The notes beneath the pieces were generated by a model. The model was not told the DNA's origin. It did no database searches and was given only the letters and a program-made list of their open reading frames with translations. From IMG/VR virus record IMGVR_UViG_3300025695_000006, positions 1-64,000 of that record: a stretch of 64,000 nt of DNA. One strand, given 5' to 3'. Below are positions 37,214-52,333 of this stretch, in pieces; position 1 is the first letter of the stretch; each line of letters begins with the position of its first letter. The translations under genes and the position numbers were made by a program. The DNA comes from a virus.

Positions 37214-38992
37214 ATGAAACTACCGATAGAAAAAAGAGCTTTAGATATACTAAAAGTTTATGAAGGGCTTAATGACCACATACTTAAAATAAAAAATGAT
37301 TATAATAAAACTAAGGGATTTGTACCAACAAAGGCTCAAAGTAATTATATAATTAGGAATGGTAATGTAAACCCTGTAATCGTAAACAAGTTATTTACTT
37401 TAAACCCATCTTGTAGAACTTTTATATCCGAACAACTAATGTTAGACTTCATACCAGAAGAAGTGTTCGTCAGTAAATTATTATCAAGAAAAAATGATAT
37501 GTTACATATAAACGGTTGTTTTGAAGAGGGATGTGACAAATATTTCAATTTTTATTTATCTAAATCATGCTTAAAATCCAATAAAGAAGAACCAGAGATA
37601 GACATAACAAAATACTCTAGACCACCAAAACCGCATCAAGTTACCGCTATAAAGAAGTTATTAAGTAACGACAAGTTTATATTAGCTGACGAAATGGGTC
37701 TGGGTAAAACAACCTCTGCTATCATATCAGCTGTTGAGGCTGGGTATGAAAAAATACTAATCGTATGTCCCGCTTCTCTTAAATTAAATTGGGAGGTGGA
37801 GATATCTAATTATGATTCGGTGGAAAATATAAGTGTTGTTAATGGCAATAACTTTAATGCTAAGAAATGGACTATAGTTAATTACGACATACTCAAAAAT
37901 TTTCATCACCTACCCAAAAGAGGTGTCAACACTGAAGACTTACCAGTATCACCAATAGACTATAATGAGTTTGATTTAGTTATTGCTGATGAAGCTCATT
38001 ACCTAAAGAACTCTAATTCAAATAGAACTAAAATATTTAATGACTTCGCTATGAAGATACCCGTTAGATGGTTATTAACAGGGACACCTATAACCAATAA
38101 ACCTATCGACTTCTATAATTTGTTATTCCTATGCGAATCACCAGTAGCGGACAGTTGGGTTGGTTATGTAAAAAGGTATTGTGCTGGTAGACAATTTAAC
38201 AGAAAAGGTACCAACAAAAAATACTGGGTATGTTCTGGAGCCTCAAACCTGGAAGAATTAAACGAATTTTCATCTGATGTTATATTGAGAAGAACAAAGG
38301 ATGAATCTATAGATCTACCACAAAAAACTGTAAAACCAGTATATCTACCAATAGAAATGTCTAAAAACTATAACACCTATATTAAAGAATACGAGGAGTG
38401 GCAAGAAGAAATGATAACCAATGGTGAAAAACCAAAAGTAACAGACCACTTAACCCAATTAGTAAAAGTTAGACAATTGTTATCCTCAGATAAAATTGGA
38501 ACGACTATTAATATGGCTGAAGAGATGATAGATAACGGTCATAAAGTTATTATATTCAGTTGTTTTACAAACACTATAAAAGAATTAGAATCCCATTTTG
38601 GTAACAAATGTGTCACTATTGACGGTTCGGTATCCTCTATAAGAAGACAACACGCAGTTGAAAGTTTTCAAAACAACGATAAAATAAAAGTCTTCATAGG
38701 GAATATAGTTGCTGCTGGAGTTGGATTAACATTAACCGAAGGTAGTGTTGTAATATTCAATGATTTGGATTGGACGCCAGCAAATCACATGCAAGCTGAA
38801 GATAGAGCACACAGAATAGGACAAGAAAATAAGGTACATATAATATACCCCCTAGTTAAAGACACGTTAGATCTTATAATGTATAAAACACTACAATCAA
38901 AAATGGAGATTATAAGTACTATAATGGGTGATGACCCAAAAGAAGACCATATCTCTATGACTAAAGAGGTTATAAATACCCTATCTCTTTAA
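37214..38992 (+). CDS. SNF2-family (HARP/SMARCAL1-like) helicase
   Basis: ILADEMGLGKT, IVCPASLKLNW, DEAH, LLTGTPITN, GVGLTLT, QAEDRAHRIGQ. Confidence 0.92.
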   Translation: MKLPIEKRALDILKVYEGLNDHILKIKNDYNKTKGFVPTKAQSNYIIRNGNVNPVIVNKLFTLNPSCRTFISEQLMLDFIPEEVFVSKLLSRKNDMLHINGCFEEGCDKYFNFYLSKSCLKSNKEEPEIDITKYSRPPKPHQVTAIKKLLSNDKFILADEMGLGKTTSAIISAVEAGYEKILIVCPASLKLNWEVEISNYDSVENISVVNGNNFNAKKWTIVNYDILKNFHHLPKRGVNTEDLPVSPIDYNEFDLVIADEAHYLKNSNSNRTKIFNDFAMKIPVRWLLTGTPITNKPIDFYNLLFLCESPVADSWVGYVKRYCAGRQFNRKGTNKKYWVCSGASNLEELNEFSSDVILRRTKDESIDLPQKTVKPVYLPIEMSKNYNTYIKEYEEWQEEMITNGEKPKVTDHLTQLVKVRQLLSSDKIGTTINMAEEMIDNGHKVIIFSCFTNTIKELESHFGNKCVTIDGSVSSIRRQHAVESFQNNDKIKVFIGNIVAAGVGLTLTEGSVVIFNDLDWTPANHMQAEDRAHRIGQENKVHIIYPLVKDTLDLIMYKTLQSKMEIISTIMGDDPKEDHISMTKEVINTLSL

Positions 38993-43393: not shown

Positions 43394-46300
43394 ATGGCTG
43401 GATACAAGATACCTTTAGATCAAATAGAAAAGTTTTTAAATGGACATGATGATGAGAAGTATATTGTTAATATAGAATACGACAAAGAAACAAATCTTAT
43501 TCACAAAATAAAACAGCATCCAGAAAAAGGCCTCTATACCGAAAAGGAGCCTCTACTCGCTTTTATGTGGATTAAAAACCTTAACAAAGTTAAGGAATTA
43601 ATAAACTTCTACGGTAATAGCGATGCTAGGATAAGATCTGCTAGAGAAAAATTCGGTATAGAAATAAAATCGTTAGAACACAGTAATCACCCTAAATTAA
43701 TTGAAGGTTATAGGTATTTACTAACCTGTACTCAGGGACACCAAAGAATGTTACAGTTCTTTAAAGAAGGTGGTTTATATGTTTATGATAAAAGAAATGA
43801 TATAAGATCTAATTTCTTAATGATATCACCAGTAGAACAATATTTAATACATACTGGTAAACGACTTTTTAAGGGTTTCGATGAATATTCTGAAATACAC
43901 AAACTAGTATTCGATTTAGAAACAACTGGTTTAGACCCTAGTTATAGTAGGATATTTATGATTGGTATGTACACAAATAAAGGTGTGGAAGAAATAATAC
44001 CAATCGAAGACAATGACGAGTCAGAAAGACAAGGTATCATAAAATTCTTTGATAAAATAAACGAAATAAAACCAGCTATTATAGCGGGATACAATAGTGC
44101 TAACTTTGACTGGCCATTTTTCTTTAAAAGATGTGAAATACTAGGGTTAGATATAGAAAAAATAGCAATCACCCTTAAGAAAGGTGAGTTAATCAATAAT
44201 AGATCAGGAATGCTTAAACTAGGTAGTGAAGTCGAACATTTCGAACAAACTAATATGTTTGGTTATAGTATTATAGACATTATACACTCAGCCAGAAGAG
44301 CTCAAGCTATCGATTCCAGTATGAAGTCAGCAGGTCTTAAATACGTTTGTAAATACAATAAAATAAATAAGAAAAATCGTGTTTATATCACTGGTGATAA
44401 AATAGGTGATACGTGGTATTCAAAAGATACTTTTTATTTTAATGACAGGAACGGTACCTACAACAAAGCTAAAGGTTCCATAGATTTTATCGATAACATA
44501 ACAAGAGAGTACGTACAATCAAACCCAGAAGAGATATTTGTTTATAGTGAGAATGAGTCTTTAGAAGGTTTTGGTGAACAATCTAAAGAGATGCGTGGCG
44601 AAAGCAACGCAATACCTATCCTTACTAAGAAAAAACCAGGTAATACCGATGATTCATTCTTTAACGACCTAGAATTAGAGGATAATAAAGTTAAAATAAA
44701 TAAGGGTATCAAGGAGATAATCAGATTTATTGATGAGGGTAAGAAAGTTAATTTCCCTAAAAGTGGTATAGGTACAGATTCTTCTCAACTACAATTAAGA
44801 GCACCTAATACCTACAACTTTTTAATACAAACGCTAAAAGCGTTGCGTTCTTACATAGAAACAATAAAACCTGTTGATGGTAAATATATTGTTGAGAGAT
44901 ATCTTATTGATGATTTATGGGAAACCATGGAAGTAGATGAGGTTTACAACCAGTCTTCATTTTTATTAGCTAAGCTAGTACCAACAACTTACCAAAGAGT
45001 ATCCACAATGGGTACCGCTGGGTTATGGAAGCTTTTAATGATGACCTATTCCTTCGAGAATGGTTTAGCCGTACCAACCCCAGAAGAGAGACGTAGTTTT
45101 ACTGGTGGGTTATCTAGACTTTTTAAGGTCGGTTATTCTGAAGAATTAAGGAAAATGGATTACGACTCATTATACCCAGCCATACAATTAGCTCACGATA
45201 TATTCCCTAGTTCTGATGTTAATGGGGCTATGAAATCCATGTTAAAATACTTTCACACAGAGAGGTTTAAAGCTAAAAACCTAGCCAGTAAGTATAAAAA
45301 AGAGGGTAACTATCAATTAGCGGATAAATACAAAAGAAAACAACTACCACTTAAGATATTTATAAACTCAATGTTCGGTGCCCTGGGTGCTCCTCTAGCC
45401 TTTCAATGGGCTGAGATAGATGTTAGTGAGCAAATAACATGTACAGCTAGGCAATACCTTAGATTATTAGTTAAATTCTTTATAAAGAAAGGTTACGACC
45501 CTTCAGTATTAGATACCGATGGTGTAAACTTCACAGCGCCAGAGAGTGGTGAAGATTTTATTTATATAGGTAAAGGTTTAAGTAACAGCGTTGAAAAAGG
45601 CAGAGAGTACACTGGTGTAGACGCTACGGTTGCGGAATTCAACGACTTATATATGCGTAAAGAAATGGGGTTGAGTTTAGATGGGGTATGGCCATCAACT
45701 ATAAACCTATCTAGAAAAAATTATGCTCTCCTAGAATATGATGGTAGTATTAGTTTAACTGGTAACAGTATTAAATCCAAAAAACTACCTATGTATATAG
45801 AAGAATTCCTTAAAAAAGGGATTAAAATGTTGTTAGAGAATAAGGGTTATGAATTTGTTAGTTATTATCATGAATATGCTGAAAAGATATATAACAAAGA
45901 AATACCATTAGCTATGATAGCAACTAAATCAAGAGTTAAGAAGAGTATTGAGGATTATAAAAATAGAGGCACTGATAAAAATGGTAGAGACCTACCTAAA
46001 CAGGCTCATATGGAATTAGCGGTTATAAATAACTTAGATGTTAACTTAGGTGATACAATATATTATGTAAATAATGGTAAGGTAAAGTCTCACGGTGATT
46101 CGCAATATAATAAAGAAGGTGAAATGTATGCTTCTTTAGTACCTATGGATATAATAGAAAACAAACCTAATGAGATAGGTGAATATAACGTACCTAAATA
46201 TCTAGACGCTTTTAACAAGAAAATAAAACCATTATTAGTTTCGTACTCTTTAAATGTTAGGGGTGATATATTGATAAATAAACCAGAAGACAAGAAAATG

Positions 46301-46495
46301 TTCCTAAGGTCGGAATTAAAATTGTTGAATAATCAACCTAACGATATAGGTGACCAAGATACCTTATTAGAGTTTTACACCCCATCACCAACAGAAAAAG
46401 AGTTCTGGAATAAACTATCATATGAACCTGATTTTTGGTTTAATGATGATATAATATTTAAAATACCTGGTTTCGAAGAAGAAATTCCAGTGTGA
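43394..46495 (+). CDS. polB: Family B DNA polymerase with an inserted ~120-aa domain in the 3'-5' exonuclease
   Basis: ExoI FDLETTG, ExoII GYNSANFDW, ExoIII ERYLIDD; Pol motifs DYDSLYP, KIFINSMFG, DTDG, KNYA. Confidence 0.95.
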   Translation: MAGYKIPLDQIEKFLNGHDDEKYIVNIEYDKETNLIHKIKQHPEKGLYTEKEPLLAFMWIKNLNKVKELINFYGNSDARIRSAREKFGIEIKSLEHSNHPKLIEGYRYLLTCTQGHQRMLQFFKEGGLYVYDKRNDIRSNFLMISPVEQYLIHTGKRLFKGFDEYSEIHKLVFDLETTGLDPSYSRIFMIGMYTNKGVEEIIPIEDNDESERQGIIKFFDKINEIKPAIIAGYNSANFDWPFFFKRCEILGLDIEKIAITLKKGELINNRSGMLKLGSEVEHFEQTNMFGYSIIDIIHSARRAQAIDSSMKSAGLKYVCKYNKINKKNRVYITGDKIGDTWYSKDTFYFNDRNGTYNKAKGSIDFIDNITREYVQSNPEEIFVYSENESLEGFGEQSKEMRGESNAIPILTKKKPGNTDDSFFNDLELEDNKVKINKGIKEIIRFIDEGKKVNFPKSGIGTDSSQLQLRAPNTYNFLIQTLKALRSYIETIKPVDGKYIVERYLIDDLWETMEVDEVYNQSSFLLAKLVPTTYQRVSTMGTAGLWKLLMMTYSFENGLAVPTPEERRSFTGGLSRLFKVGYSEELRKMDYDSLYPAIQLAHDIFPSSDVNGAMKSMLKYFHTERFKAKNLASKYKKEGNYQLADKYKRKQLPLKIFINSMFGALGAPLAFQWAEIDVSEQITCTARQYLRLLVKFFIKKGYDPSVLDTDGVNFTAPESGEDFIYIGKGLSNSVEKGREYTGVDATVAEFNDLYMRKEMGLSLDGVWPSTINLSRKNYALLEYDGSISLTGNSIKSKKLPMYIEEFLKKGIKMLLENKGYEFVSYYHEYAEKIYNKEIPLAMIATKSRVKKSIEDYKNRGTDKNGRDLPKQAHMELAVINNLDVNLGDTIYYVNNGKVKSHGDSQYNKEGEMYASLVPMDIIENKPNEIGEYNVPKYLDAFNKKIKPLLVSYSLNVRGDILINKPEDKKMFLRSELKLLNNQPNDIGDQDTLLEFYTPSPTEKEFWNKLSYEPDFWFNDDIIFKIPGFEEEIPV

Positions 46496-51109: not shown

Positions 51110-52333
51110 ATGAGTAAGATAAACATACTAGTTAACCCTAATGATAGGTCTGGATCTGGTAAATACAGGTGTATAGACCCACACGTAACCCTACAAAATA
51201 ACCACAGTGAAGAATATTTTGTAGAGATAAACCAAAATATAGATTTTAACGACACTAACTACCTAAAAAAGTTTAATATATTCTTTTTTAATAGGGTACC
51301 TGGGGGTAATTACCAACAAGCCGAAGAGATTTTCGCTAAGATAAAATCTTTAGGTGGTAAAATAGTTCTTGATTTAGATGACTACTGGAGATTGGATAAA
51401 TCTCACGGTATGTATTTACAGGCTAAAGAAGGTGGATACAGTAGAACTATTATCAATCTAGTTAAAAGTGCTGATATGGTAACTGTTACAACAGAAATAC
51501 TAAGAGATGAAGTATTTAAGTACAACAAAAACTGTTTCGTATTACCAAACGCGATTAACCCAAAAGAACAACAATTTACACCAAAACCTACAGAATCTGA
51601 TAGATTAAGGTTCGGTTGGCTTGGCGGGTCTTCCCATATTAAAGATATCGAATTAATTAAAGATATAGCTCAGACCACAGCAAAACGAAAAGATGAAATA
51701 CAATTTGTTTTATGCGGTTTCGATAAAAGAGGTAAGGTTAAAATGTTCAACCCAGAAACTAAAAAGTGGATGGAAAGAGATATGCAACCACTAGAAACTA
51801 CATGGTTCATGTATGAGGTGTTTATAACTAACAATTTTAGATTATTAGAGGGTGATACCGAGTATCTAAGTCATCTAATGAAGTTTGACCCAGAAGTTAA
51901 ATTTGATGACTTAAACAAACCATACAGAAGGATATGGACAAAAAATATTAATAACTATGCTACAGGTTATAACGAGTTCGATGTAGCATTAGCACCTTTG
52001 TTAGATAACGAATTTAATAAATACAAGTCTCAGTTAAAAGTTATTGAGGCTGGTTTCCACAAAAAACCTATCATTGCACAAAACTACGGTCCGTATACAA
52101 TAGATTTAATATCAGCGGTAAACAAAGGTGGTACTATTAACAGTGATGGTAACTCTTTATTAGTGGAAACTAGTAAAAACCATAAACAATGGGGTAAACA
52201 CGTTAAAATGTTAATGGATAACCCAAATATGGTAACGGACTTAGGTGAAAAGTTATACGAAACAGTTAAAGATCGTTACGATATAAATAACGTAACAAAA
52301 TATAGAGACGAATTATACAAATCATTAGTTTAG
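51110..52333 (+). CDS. Glycosyltransferase, GT-B fold
   Basis: LDLDDYW, ADMVTVTT, VLPNAI, GWLGGSSH, DVALAPL...FNKYKSQLKVIEAG. Confidence 0.8.
   Translation: MSKINILVNPNDRSGSGKYRCIDPHVTLQNNHSEEYFVEINQNIDFNDTNYLKKFNIFFFNRVPGGNYQQAEEIFAKIKSLGGKIVLDLDDYWRLDKSHGMYLQAKEGGYSRTIINLVKSADMVTVTTEILRDEVFKYNKNCFVLPNAINPKEQQFTPKPTESDRLRFGWLGGSSHIKDIELIKDIAQTTAKRKDEIQFVLCGFDKRGKVKMFNPETKKWMERDMQPLETTWFMYEVFITNNFRLLEGDTEYLSHLMKFDPEVKFDDLNKPYRRIWTKNINNYATGYNEFDVALAPLLDNEFNKYKSQLKVIEAGFHKKPIIAQNYGPYTIDLISAVNKGGTINSDGNSLLVETSKNHKQWGKHVKMLMDNPNMVTDLGEKLYETVKDRYDINNVTKYRDELYKSLV

What the first reader, a model, noticed from the sequence alone, without database searches (positions are those of the whole stretch)
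44480..44850. DNA polymerase B carries a macrodomain-like insert inside its proofreading exonuclease
Seen: between ExoII (NFDW) and ExoIII (ERYLIDD) lies a ~120-aa block, ITREYVQSNPEEIFVYSEN...GFGEQSKEMRGESNAIPILTKKKP...FFND...KKVNFPKSGIGTDSSQLQLRAPNTY.FL. It has no intein hallmarks. From recall, it matches small stand-alone phage proteins of the DUF7831/A1S_2505-like group (FVFGDN..G.GGQA..MRGEPNA.GIPTK...FP..GIGTG.A.L...AP), which look macrodomain-like. Here the Gly loops are altered (GGQA to GEQS, GIGTG to GIGTD). Established: DarT toxins ADP-ribosylate DNA to block phage replication, and macrodomain DarG removes the mark. Inference: a polymerase with a built-in reader or eraser of ADP-ribosylated or otherwise modified DNA, or a decayed domain retained as a scaffold.
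Basis: partly seen in the sequence, partly recalled or inferred. Interest (0 to 1): 0.75.

Follow-up and report, generated by a model that had tools for sequence, protein, structure and literature searches.

The report
Macro-like DUF7831 domain inside phage polymerase
A large uncultured phage's DNA-copying enzyme has a small domain of unknown function (DUF7831) in its proofreading part that looks like a stripped-down ADP-ribose-removing enzyme, which suggests a built-in tool against a bacterial defence that marks DNA, but this copy has altered key loops and nothing has been tested.

Summary
The 1033-aa family-B DNA polymerase (window 43394-46495, +) carries a full-length Pfam DUF7831 domain (aa 365-479, E 5.6e-31) between Exo II and Exo III. 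Its closest insert-less relatives have a 14-residue linker at that position.

What is new here is the evolutionary pattern:
- About 55 related polymerases keep all 21 DUF7831 signature residues.
- The window's lineage keeps only 12-15 (this copy 14; SEN, GEQS, GIGTD).
- The insert decayed independently in several other lineages and was lost at least once.
- The window's insert is still under purifying selection (dN/dS about 0.1).

It is therefore a retuned or weakened variant, not a neutral relic. An anti-DarT, DNA de-ADP-ribosylating role is the best guess and is untested.

This scan had already noted the same polymerase insert in at least seven other genomes. No paper in the searched library mentions DUF7831.

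The parts
43394..46495 (+). Family-B DNA polymerase gene, 1033 aa, including the stop codon
   Evidence: Pfam DNA_pol_B_exo1, RNase_H_2 and DNA_pol_B; phrog_262 DNA polymerase at E 4e-47. PDB profile hits to Pfu/KOD/Tgo PolB at E 1e-34 to 1e-30.
43910..43930 (+). Exo I motif FDLETTG (D174, E176)
   Evidence: Invariant columns in alignment A1; coordinates.
44090..44113 (+). Exo II motif YNSANFDW (D239)
   Evidence: (aligned to Pfu YNGDSFDFPYL).
44480..44860 (+). Inserted DUF7831 domain with its C-terminal helix (aa 363-489). The Pfam match proper is 44486-44830.
   Evidence: AlphaFold model pLDDT 91.9.
44540..44584 (+). Motif 1, VYSEN...GFGEQS (family consensus FVFGDN...G.GGQA). N387 is the family-invariant Asn, aligned by hhalign to the catalytic Asn of AdfM/DarG (DarG N22). 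Substitutions here are G385S, D386E, G395E and A397S.
44588..44638 (+). Motif 2, EMRGESN...ILTKKKP (consensus EMRGEPN.IGI.TK..P). R401, E403, N405 and K412 are kept; G408 is replaced by P.
   Evidence: The equivalence of K412 to DarG K80 (FPTK) is by eye only; hhalign did not place it so.
44765..44815 (+). Motif 3, GIGTDSSQLQLRAPNTY (consensus GIGTGLA.L...AP.T). G462D falls at the position of TARG1 Asp in GCGLD.
44900..44926 (+). Exo III motif YLIDDLWET (Y503, D507), about 14 residues after the insert's last helix
   Evidence: (aligned to Pfu 306-315).
45158..45178 (+). Polymerase motif A, DYDSLYP
45353..45379 (+). Polymerase motif B, KIFINSMFG
45512..45523 (+). Polymerase motif C, DTDG

Best explanation
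The insert is a complete DUF7831 domain. DUF7831 is a small, phage-enriched alpha/beta domain of unknown function. Its predicted fold and motif layout are closest to the TARG1/DarG2 branch of macrodomains, in a cut-down form that lacks two strands. It lies on the surface of the 3'-5' exonuclease module of an otherwise intact replicative family-B polymerase, just before the Exo III helix. An ancestor of a deep clade of large-phage PolBs acquired it. Most of that clade keeps every signature residue, which suggests a ligand-binding or catalytic accessory function that travels with the replisome. The most likely such function (inferred) is recognition or removal of ADP-ribose placed on single-stranded template DNA by DarT-type defence toxins. 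That would be an anti-DarT factor of the AdfM kind, built into the polymerase that stalls at the lesion. In the window's lineage the two Gly-rich loops are rewritten (G385S, D386E, G395E, A397S, G408P, G462D), while the invariant Asn387, Arg401, Asn405 and Pro471, together with Glu403 and Lys412, remain. The domain is still under purifying selection. This copy is therefore most likely a retuned or weakened variant with changed ligand or specificity, or binding without efficient hydrolysis. It is not a neutral relic.
For: - **Identity and position:**
- **Intact polymerase:** the Exo I-III and Pol A-C motifs are invariant.
- **Fold:** two models have pLDDT 91.9 and 94.9. VIA-align searches put macrodomains on top:
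  - Macros fill 12 of the top 16 rows. Non-macro rows show 4-12% identity.
- **Motif register:** hhalign against a diverse DarG2/AdfM profile aligns end to end. It puts the family-invariant Asn on the catalytic Asn, GGQA on GAGlA, and P..GIGTG on PPLGCANG. DarG N22 and K80 are the catalytic residues (PMC13309987).
- **Conservation:** about 55 PolB cluster representatives keep 21 of 21 signature residues down to 46% PolB identity.
- **Window lineage:** it keeps 12-15 of 21, and the new motifs are shared by all six representatives. Insert dN is 0.155-0.212 against dS of at least 1.5. The dN ratio of insert to the rest of the protein is 2.05-2.61, against about 0.8-2.4 in fully canonical pairs.
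- **Accessory behaviour:** there were at least 6 independent decays and at least one precise loss.
- **Counter-defence context:**
  - DUF7831 occurs in giant proteins of crAss-like phages and in many stand-alone phage genes.
  - DarT modifies ssDNA and stalls replication (PMC7003065, title and abstract seen).
  - Phages escape DarTG by polymerase mutations or by macro or NADAR erasers (PMC11481870; PMC13309987; PMC13716836).
Against: - Foldseek finds no macrodomain. Its best PDB rows have E of about 0.02 (CbiL, DUSP).
- hhalign probability is 2%, and 8 of 150 column shuffles reach the score.
- A shallower DarG profile gave an off-register alignment.
- No Pfam Macro hit appears in this protein at E up to 1, or in any of 48 family members at E up to 10. 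There is no PADLOC DarG hit.
- hhalign did not align the TK motif with FPTK.
- The domain lacks about 35 residues and two strands of a canonical macrodomain.
- The characterised AdfM phages (PhiKZ, T4) have no DUF7831, so no member of this family has any assay behind it.
- This copy has Glu in place of a loop Gly (G395E), which on the macro reading should hinder diphosphate binding.
- No DarT, host or DNA-modification information is available for this phage.
- The position of the insert relative to the DNA path was not modelled.
Confidence: 0.45

Rival explanations
1. In this lineage the insert is a catalytically dead structural module. It is kept because the exonuclease domain now folds around it, or because it docks a replisome partner. 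It does not handle ADP-ribose or any other ligand.
For: Six to seven of the 21 signature residues are replaced, mostly Gly in the two loops, and G395E and G462D introduce acidic side chains. Other PolB lineages keep a same-sized insert with almost no signature residues left (P0064/65/66/68/76/79/119, 1-7 of 21), which shows the fold can be retained without the motifs. The insert evolves about 2-2.6 times faster than the rest of the protein.
Against: The invariant Asn387, Arg401, Asn405 and Pro471, together with Glu403, Lys412 and Asp425, are retained. The replacement motifs (YS[ED]N, GEQS, GIGTD-SSQL) are themselves conserved across the lineage. dN/dS of about 0.1 shows stronger constraint than a spacer needs. 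Whole clades have removed the insert cleanly, so the polymerase does not need it structurally.
Confidence: 0.22
2. DUF7831 is not a macrodomain derivative. It is an unrelated small nucleotide- or phosphate-binding alpha/beta domain (Rossmann-like or SLOG/LOG-like, or a new fold) with another substrate. Candidates are a nucleotide-derived immune signal, a damaged or blocked DNA end, or a modified nucleotide. Its likeness to macrodomains is a common three-layer arrangement.
Against: Macrodomains of one sub-branch (TARG1, DarG, Poa1p) top all three VIA lists for two models. Their structure-based identity is 17-20%, against 4-12% for the other folds. The motif order, and the strand-loop-helix context, match DarG/AdfM at the catalytic Asn and the GxGxG loop. 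There is no Cys for a DUSP-type P-loop and no Walker A motif (sequence). No LOG, DprA or YpsA structure appears among the 50 rows shown in any list, which is weak evidence.
Confidence: 0.25
3. The insert is a selfish mobile insertion (intein-like or homing-element remnant) with no function for the phage.
For: It is a discrete in-frame block absent from close relatives. A related PolB (P0050) does carry a true intein elsewhere.
Against: There are no Hint, intein or LAGLIDADG hits. The same domain exists as stand-alone genes and in many other architectures. It is conserved with 21 of 21 signature residues across PolBs down to 46% identity and is under purifying selection. It is present in the mature reading frame of all clade members at the same site.
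Confidence: 0.02

Closest known systems
Pfam DUF7831 (PF25176) / PHROG phrog_2072: stand-alone phage proteins of about 120-160 aa (for example in Roseobacter phage DSS3P8, Rhizobium phage RHph_Y65, Caulobacter phage Seuss) and copies in giant viruses
   Same: There is a full-length HMM match (107 bits, profile positions 3-117 of 118). The predicted fold matches at BFVD Foldseek E 1e-9 to 1e-12 and TM 0.8.
   Different: Here the domain is an internal insert in a polymerase, not a separate gene. This copy keeps only 14 of the 21 signature residues. The family itself has no known function.
DarG2 antitoxin macrodomain (T. aquaticus 5M3E, M. tuberculosis 5M3I, EPEC DarG) and human TARG1 (4J5S)
   Different: No significant sequence or profile similarity was found. 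The insert is about 35 residues and two strands shorter. It carries an extra conserved EMRGEPN motif and has no DarT-binding C-terminal domain. No activity has been shown.
AdfM, anti-DarT factor macrodomain (PhiKZ gp104, PMC13309987; T4 Tk.4, PMC13716836)
   Same: It is a phage-encoded, DarG2-like small domain proposed or shown to strip ADP-ribose from phage DNA. It acts where phage DNA replicates (PhiKZ AdfM is imported into the phage nucleus).
   Different: AdfM proteins are bona fide Pfam Macro members and free-standing proteins. PhiKZ and T4 have no DUF7831. The polymerase-embedded architecture has not been described in the papers searched.
Insert-less sister PolBs (902-966 aa; for example P0083, P0089, P0102)
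   Same: They are 50-55% identical across the whole polymerase, with the same Exo and Pol motifs.
   Different: They have a 14-residue linker where the window has the 125-130-aa domain. On the core tree they are nested among insert-bearing lineages.

Membership tests
Pfam DUF7831 (PF25176) | HMM score above the gathering threshold over the whole model | tested here: met
   107.3 bits against a cut-off of 27, E 5.6e-31, profile positions 3-117 of 118; 112 bits on the six-frame search.
Pfam DUF7831 (PF25176) | Family signature residues (5 invariant, 15 present in at least 90% of 48 stand-alone members, plus the third Gly of the consensus GIGTG motif) | tested here: inconclusive
   All 5 invariant residues are kept (N387, G392, R401, N405, P471). 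Overall 14 of 21 are kept: F384Y, G385S, D386E, G395E, A397S, G408P and G462D are changed.
Macrodomain superfamily (Pfam Macro PF01661 and clan) | Sequence or profile match to a Macro family | tested here: not met
   No Macro hit at E up to 1 for the protein or the insert. None of 48 DUF7831 members hits at E up to 10. PDB sequence and profile searches are empty. hhalign probability is 1-2%, and 8 of 150 shuffles reach the score.
Macrodomain superfamily (Pfam Macro PF01661 and clan) | Macro fold (three-layer alpha/beta/alpha with a mixed sheet) | tested here: inconclusive
DarG2 / TARG1 / AdfM-type ADP-ribosyl glycohydrolases | Catalytic Asn after strand 2 and catalytic Lys in the (F)PTK strand (DarG N22, K80), with a GxGxG diphosphate loop | tested here: inconclusive
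   A low-confidence hhalign alignment places the invariant Asn (N387) and the P..GxGxG loop in register. The TK motif (K412) matches FPTK only by eye. Catalytic residues are taken from PMC13309987.
DarG2 / TARG1 / AdfM-type ADP-ribosyl glycohydrolases | Binds ADP-ribose and hydrolyses ADP-ribosyl-DNA | not testable with these tools
   Needs biochemistry. No member of DUF7831 has been assayed in the papers searched.
Family-B DNA polymerase with proofreading | Exo I (DxE), Exo II (NxxxFD), Exo III (YxxxD), and Pol motifs A (DxxSLYPS), B (KxxxNSxYG) and C (DTDG) | tested here: met
   All are present and invariant in alignment A1. The profile matches Pfu/KOD/Tgo PolB, with Pfam and PHROG polymerase hits.
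Intein / homing element | Hint domain blocks, splice-junction residues, LAGLIDADG or HNH endonuclease | tested here: not met
   No such Pfam hit in P0001. The block is a DUF7831 domain that also exists as free genes.

The most novel reading that the evidence does not exclude
A clade of large-phage replicative polymerases carries a built-in, cis-acting DNA de-ADP-ribosylase. This is a minimal TARG1/DarG-like macrodomain mounted on the exonuclease domain that clears, or senses, DarT lesions on the template as the enzyme meets them. The function would be gained, retuned and discarded repeatedly in an arms race. The window's GIGTD variant, with an Asp at the TARG1 catalytic position, would be a specificity switch rather than a decay.
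Probability: 0.25. Interest if true: 0.8.

Novelty: new variant of a known kind. Interest (0 to 1): 0.55.

Why it matters
DarT toxins stop phages by ADP-ribosylating single-stranded DNA, which stalls the polymerase. Known escapes are polymerase mutations or free-standing eraser enzymes (AdfM, AdfN). A polymerase that carries its own eraser or reader at the stall site would be a third solution. It would also give a first function to DUF7831, which has more than a thousand 50%-identity cluster representatives in phages and giant viruses, some of them embedded in giant phage proteins.

The natural series found here offers ready-made controls for that test: fully conserved, retuned (this window), decayed and cleanly deleted inserts in otherwise similar polymerases. 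If the domain turns out not to handle ADP-ribose, the pattern still marks a dispensable accessory module of the replisome that is kept under selection and is worth assaying.

Tried and rejected
- **Foldseek against the PDB** for both models found no match at E up to 0.001. The top rows were CbiL, DUSP and MurD at E of about 0.02-0.1.
- **Foldseek against BFVD** returned only DUF7831 proteins and no viral macrodomains.
- **PDB sequence searches** with the insert and with the family profile found nothing meaningful.
- **hhalign comparisons:**
  - Against a shallow EPEC-DarG profile: probability 1%, off-register.
  - Against a diverse DarG2/AdfM profile: probability 2%, empirical p of about 0.05.
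- **Other libraries** gave no further lead. PADLOC returned no DarG model hit. NCBIfam returned no model for the domain. The ESM Atlas returned only DUF7831 clusters.
- **Literature:** 'DUF7831' and 'PF25176' give zero papers. The polyvalent-protein and viral NAD/ADPr surveys do not mention a polymerase-embedded macro.
- **Alternative folds rejected:** DUSP/PTP-like, CobA and CbiL readings were rejected because there is no catalytic Cys, Walker A or GxGPG motif, and the structure-based identity is low. The intein reading was rejected.
- **Redundant copy:** a stand-alone DUF7831 or Pfam Macro that could explain the relaxed loops was not found in the 80-kb record, or in five relatives' records that are 52-69% complete. 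All are incomplete, so absence is not shown.
- **Gene neighbourhoods** of stand-alone copies are uninformative in DSS3P8. In Rhizobium phage RHph_Y65 the gene sits near exonuclease, DnaQ-like and SbcCD genes.
- **Cluster look-ups** gave no source names, so 'A1S_2505-like' stays unverified.

Full report
**What is there**

The window is part of an 80-kb IMG/VR virus record that CheckV estimates at 27% complete, so the full phage genome is probably large. It is AT-rich, about 30-36% G+C. It carries tailed-phage genes, including an SNF2-type helicase, an adaptor-like protein and glycosyltransferases.

ORF 43394..46495 (+) encodes a 1033-aa family-B DNA polymerase. Pfam finds the exonuclease module at aa 172-316 and the polymerase module at aa 609-895. 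Between them it finds a full-length DUF7831 (PF25176) at aa 365-479, with E 5.6e-31 and profile positions 3-117 of 118. PHROGs gives phrog_262 (DNA polymerase) and a weak phrog_2072 on the insert.

The Exo I, II and III motifs and Pol motifs A, B and C are intact and invariant among relatives. The host enzyme therefore looks like a working proofreading replicase.

**Delimiting the insert**

A search of 5.8 billion proteins finds a deep clade of PolBs of about 1030-1100 aa, down to 46% identity, that all carry PF25176. A group of 902-966-aa PolBs at 50-55% identity does not carry it. In the alignment the shorter proteins join the flanks with a short linker, exactly where the window has about aa 360-490. 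The insert ends about 14 residues before the Exo III helix, which aligns to Pfu residue 306 onward.

**What the domain is**

DUF7831 is widespread. A full HMMER scan of 1.84 billion representatives gives 1390 hits at E up to 1e-3. They include:
- stand-alone proteins of 120-160 aa;
- tandem copies;
- fusions to cpYpsA-SLOG, sigma-70 regions 3-4 and a RanBP zinc finger;
- many giant proteins of 2,000-6,800 aa in which it is the only Pfam hit.

BFVD shows it in crAss-like phage giant proteins, in Caulobacter and Rhizobium phages, and in giant viruses.

The family consensus is FVFGDN..R.G.GGQAKEMRGEPNAIGI.TK..P....FF.D ... VV.P..GIGTGLA.L...AP.T. It has no significant sequence link to any other Pfam, NCBIfam or PADLOC family, or to any PDB chain. 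No paper in the searched library mentions it.

**Fold**

I folded the window insert (pLDDT 91.9) and a canonical stand-alone member (pLDDT 94.9). Both give the same order of elements: beta-alpha-beta-loop-alpha-beta-long alpha-beta-loop-alpha.

- then alphavirus, coronavirus and PARP macrodomains.

**Motif register**

Using EPEC DarG and PhiKZ gp104 AdfM with its homologues, I built DarG2/AdfM profiles. hhalign gives no significant score. Probability is 1-2%, and 8 of 150 column-shuffled controls reach the score.

With the diverse profile, however, the alignment runs end to end:
- The family-invariant Asn (N387 here) falls on the catalytic Asn of AdfM/DarG.
- GGQA falls on GAGlA.
- P..GIGTG falls on PPLGCANG.

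DarG N22 and K80 are the catalytic residues (PMC13309987). By eye, the conserved IGIPTK strand resembles DarG NFPTK and TARG1 LITKK (sequences), but hhalign did not align it that way.

The characterised AdfM phages, PhiKZ and T4, contain no DUF7831. This family is therefore distinct from the tested erasers.

**What is special about this copy**

I scored 21 signature residues in 118 PolB cluster representatives.

| Group | Signature residues kept (of 21) | Notes |
|---|---|---|
| About 55 representatives | 21 | Canonical |
| Window lineage (P0001, P0003-7) | 12-15 | Shared new motifs YS[ED]N, GEQS, GIGTD-SSQL |
| Neighbouring group (P0012-14, P0021) | 13-14 | |
| P0008 | 19 | Intermediate |
| Seven representatives in at least five further lineages (P0064, P0065/66, P0068, P0076, P0079/P0119) | 1-7 | Insert of 89-131 aa retained |
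| 43 representatives | none | Insert absent |

On a maximum-likelihood tree of the polymerase core, built without the insert, the two insert-less groups sit in separate places. Each is sister to a canonical insert-bearing lineage, with support 1.0 and 0.997. No rooting makes the insert-bearing proteins one clade. At least one clean loss, and at least six independent decays, are needed.

Codon analysis on IMG/VR relatives covers the window subclade. The insert has dN 0.155-0.212 against dS of at least 1.5, which gives dN/dS of about 0.07-0.12. dS is near saturation, so these values are approximate. The rest of the protein has dN/dS of 0.04-0.06. The dN ratio of insert to rest is 2.05-2.61, against about 0.8-2.4 for fully canonical pairs.

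The copy is therefore mildly relaxed but clearly constrained. It keeps all five invariant residues and Lys412. The replaced residues cluster in the two Gly-rich loops. On the macro reading, and from established knowledge of macrodomains, these loops hold the diphosphate and distal ribose. G462D puts an Asp where TARG1 has its Asp in GCGLD, by chaining the alignments. That chain is low-confidence and is an inference.

**Mechanism proposed**

Shown:
- a complete, folded, selected domain inside the exonuclease module of an intact polymerase;
- dispensability across the clade;
- the closest resemblance being to TARG1/DarG.

Inferred:
- In canonical members the domain binds or removes ADP-ribose from single-stranded template DNA, acting as a replisome-tethered anti-DarT factor.
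- In this lineage the function is retuned or weakened.

The biological logic comes from published work. DarT ADP-ribosylates ssDNA and stalls replication (PMC7003065, title and abstract). Phages escape through polymerase mutations or through macro or NADAR erasers.

No second DUF7831 or Pfam Macro gene was found in this record or in five relatives' records. All of them are incomplete.

**Relation to earlier notes of this scan**

The same polymerase insert was noted and followed up in at least seven other genomes, with the same cautious reading. One of those notes led me to the T4 Tk.4/AdfM paper, which I checked.

This report adds three things:
- the window's copy belongs to a lineage with rewritten loops;
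- the insert has decayed or been lost repeatedly across the clade;
- the window's copy remains under purifying selection.

**Verdict**

The macro-like interpretation is partly supported, with about 0.65 for a macro-derived fold and about 0.3 for an anti-DarT function in the clade. This copy is most likely a retuned or weakened variant.

Noticed in passing
P0123, P0128, P0131, P0136, P0138 and others; BFVD A0A7M1RU68, A0A7M1RTM7, A0A7M1RV35: DUF7831 sits inside many giant proteins of 2,000-6,800 aa. In the three scanned (P0123, P0126, P0131) it is the only Pfam hit. Several BFVD matches are giant proteins of crAss-like phages. This is consistent with multi-domain, possibly injected, counter-defence proteins.
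   Followed up: partly
P0122, P0161, P0164, P0215: Other DUF7831 architectures exist: two tandem copies in a 300-aa protein, a cpYpsA-SLOG fusion, a RanBP zinc-finger fusion, and a sigma-70 region 3-4 fusion.
   Followed up: no
P0050: A related 1392-aa PolB carries a true intein (PF14528, PF14890) in addition to the DUF7831 insert.
   Followed up: no
BFVD hits A0A3G5ADK8, A0A6N1NMG5, A0A5K0U977: Giant viruses of eukaryotes (Hyperionvirus, Tupanvirus, Yasminevirus) encode stand-alone DUF7831 proteins, so the family is not limited to phages.
   Followed up: no
P0008, L012, L030: An intermediate form keeps GDN and GGQA but has NVPGSG in place of GIGTG (19 of 21). Its insert differs from fully canonical neighbours four times faster than the rest of the protein (dN ratio 3.6-4.8).
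   Followed up: partly
P0079 and P0060 in alignment A1: Single PolB relatives carry further lineage-specific insertions: about 45 aa in the N-terminal domain of P0079, and about 32 aa near the C-terminus of P0060.
   Followed up: no
window 37214-38992 (+), 51110-52333 (+): An SNF2-type helicase (phrog_62, E 7e-104) lies upstream of the polymerase region and a glycosyltransferase (phrog_7162) lies downstream. Most neighbours of the polymerase gene have no PHROG match.
   Followed up: no
L006 (Rhizobium phage RHph_Y65): The stand-alone DUF7831 gene lies among an exonuclease gene, a DnaQ-like epsilon exonuclease gene and an SbcCD-like gene, which is a DNA-metabolism neighbourhood.
   Followed up: no
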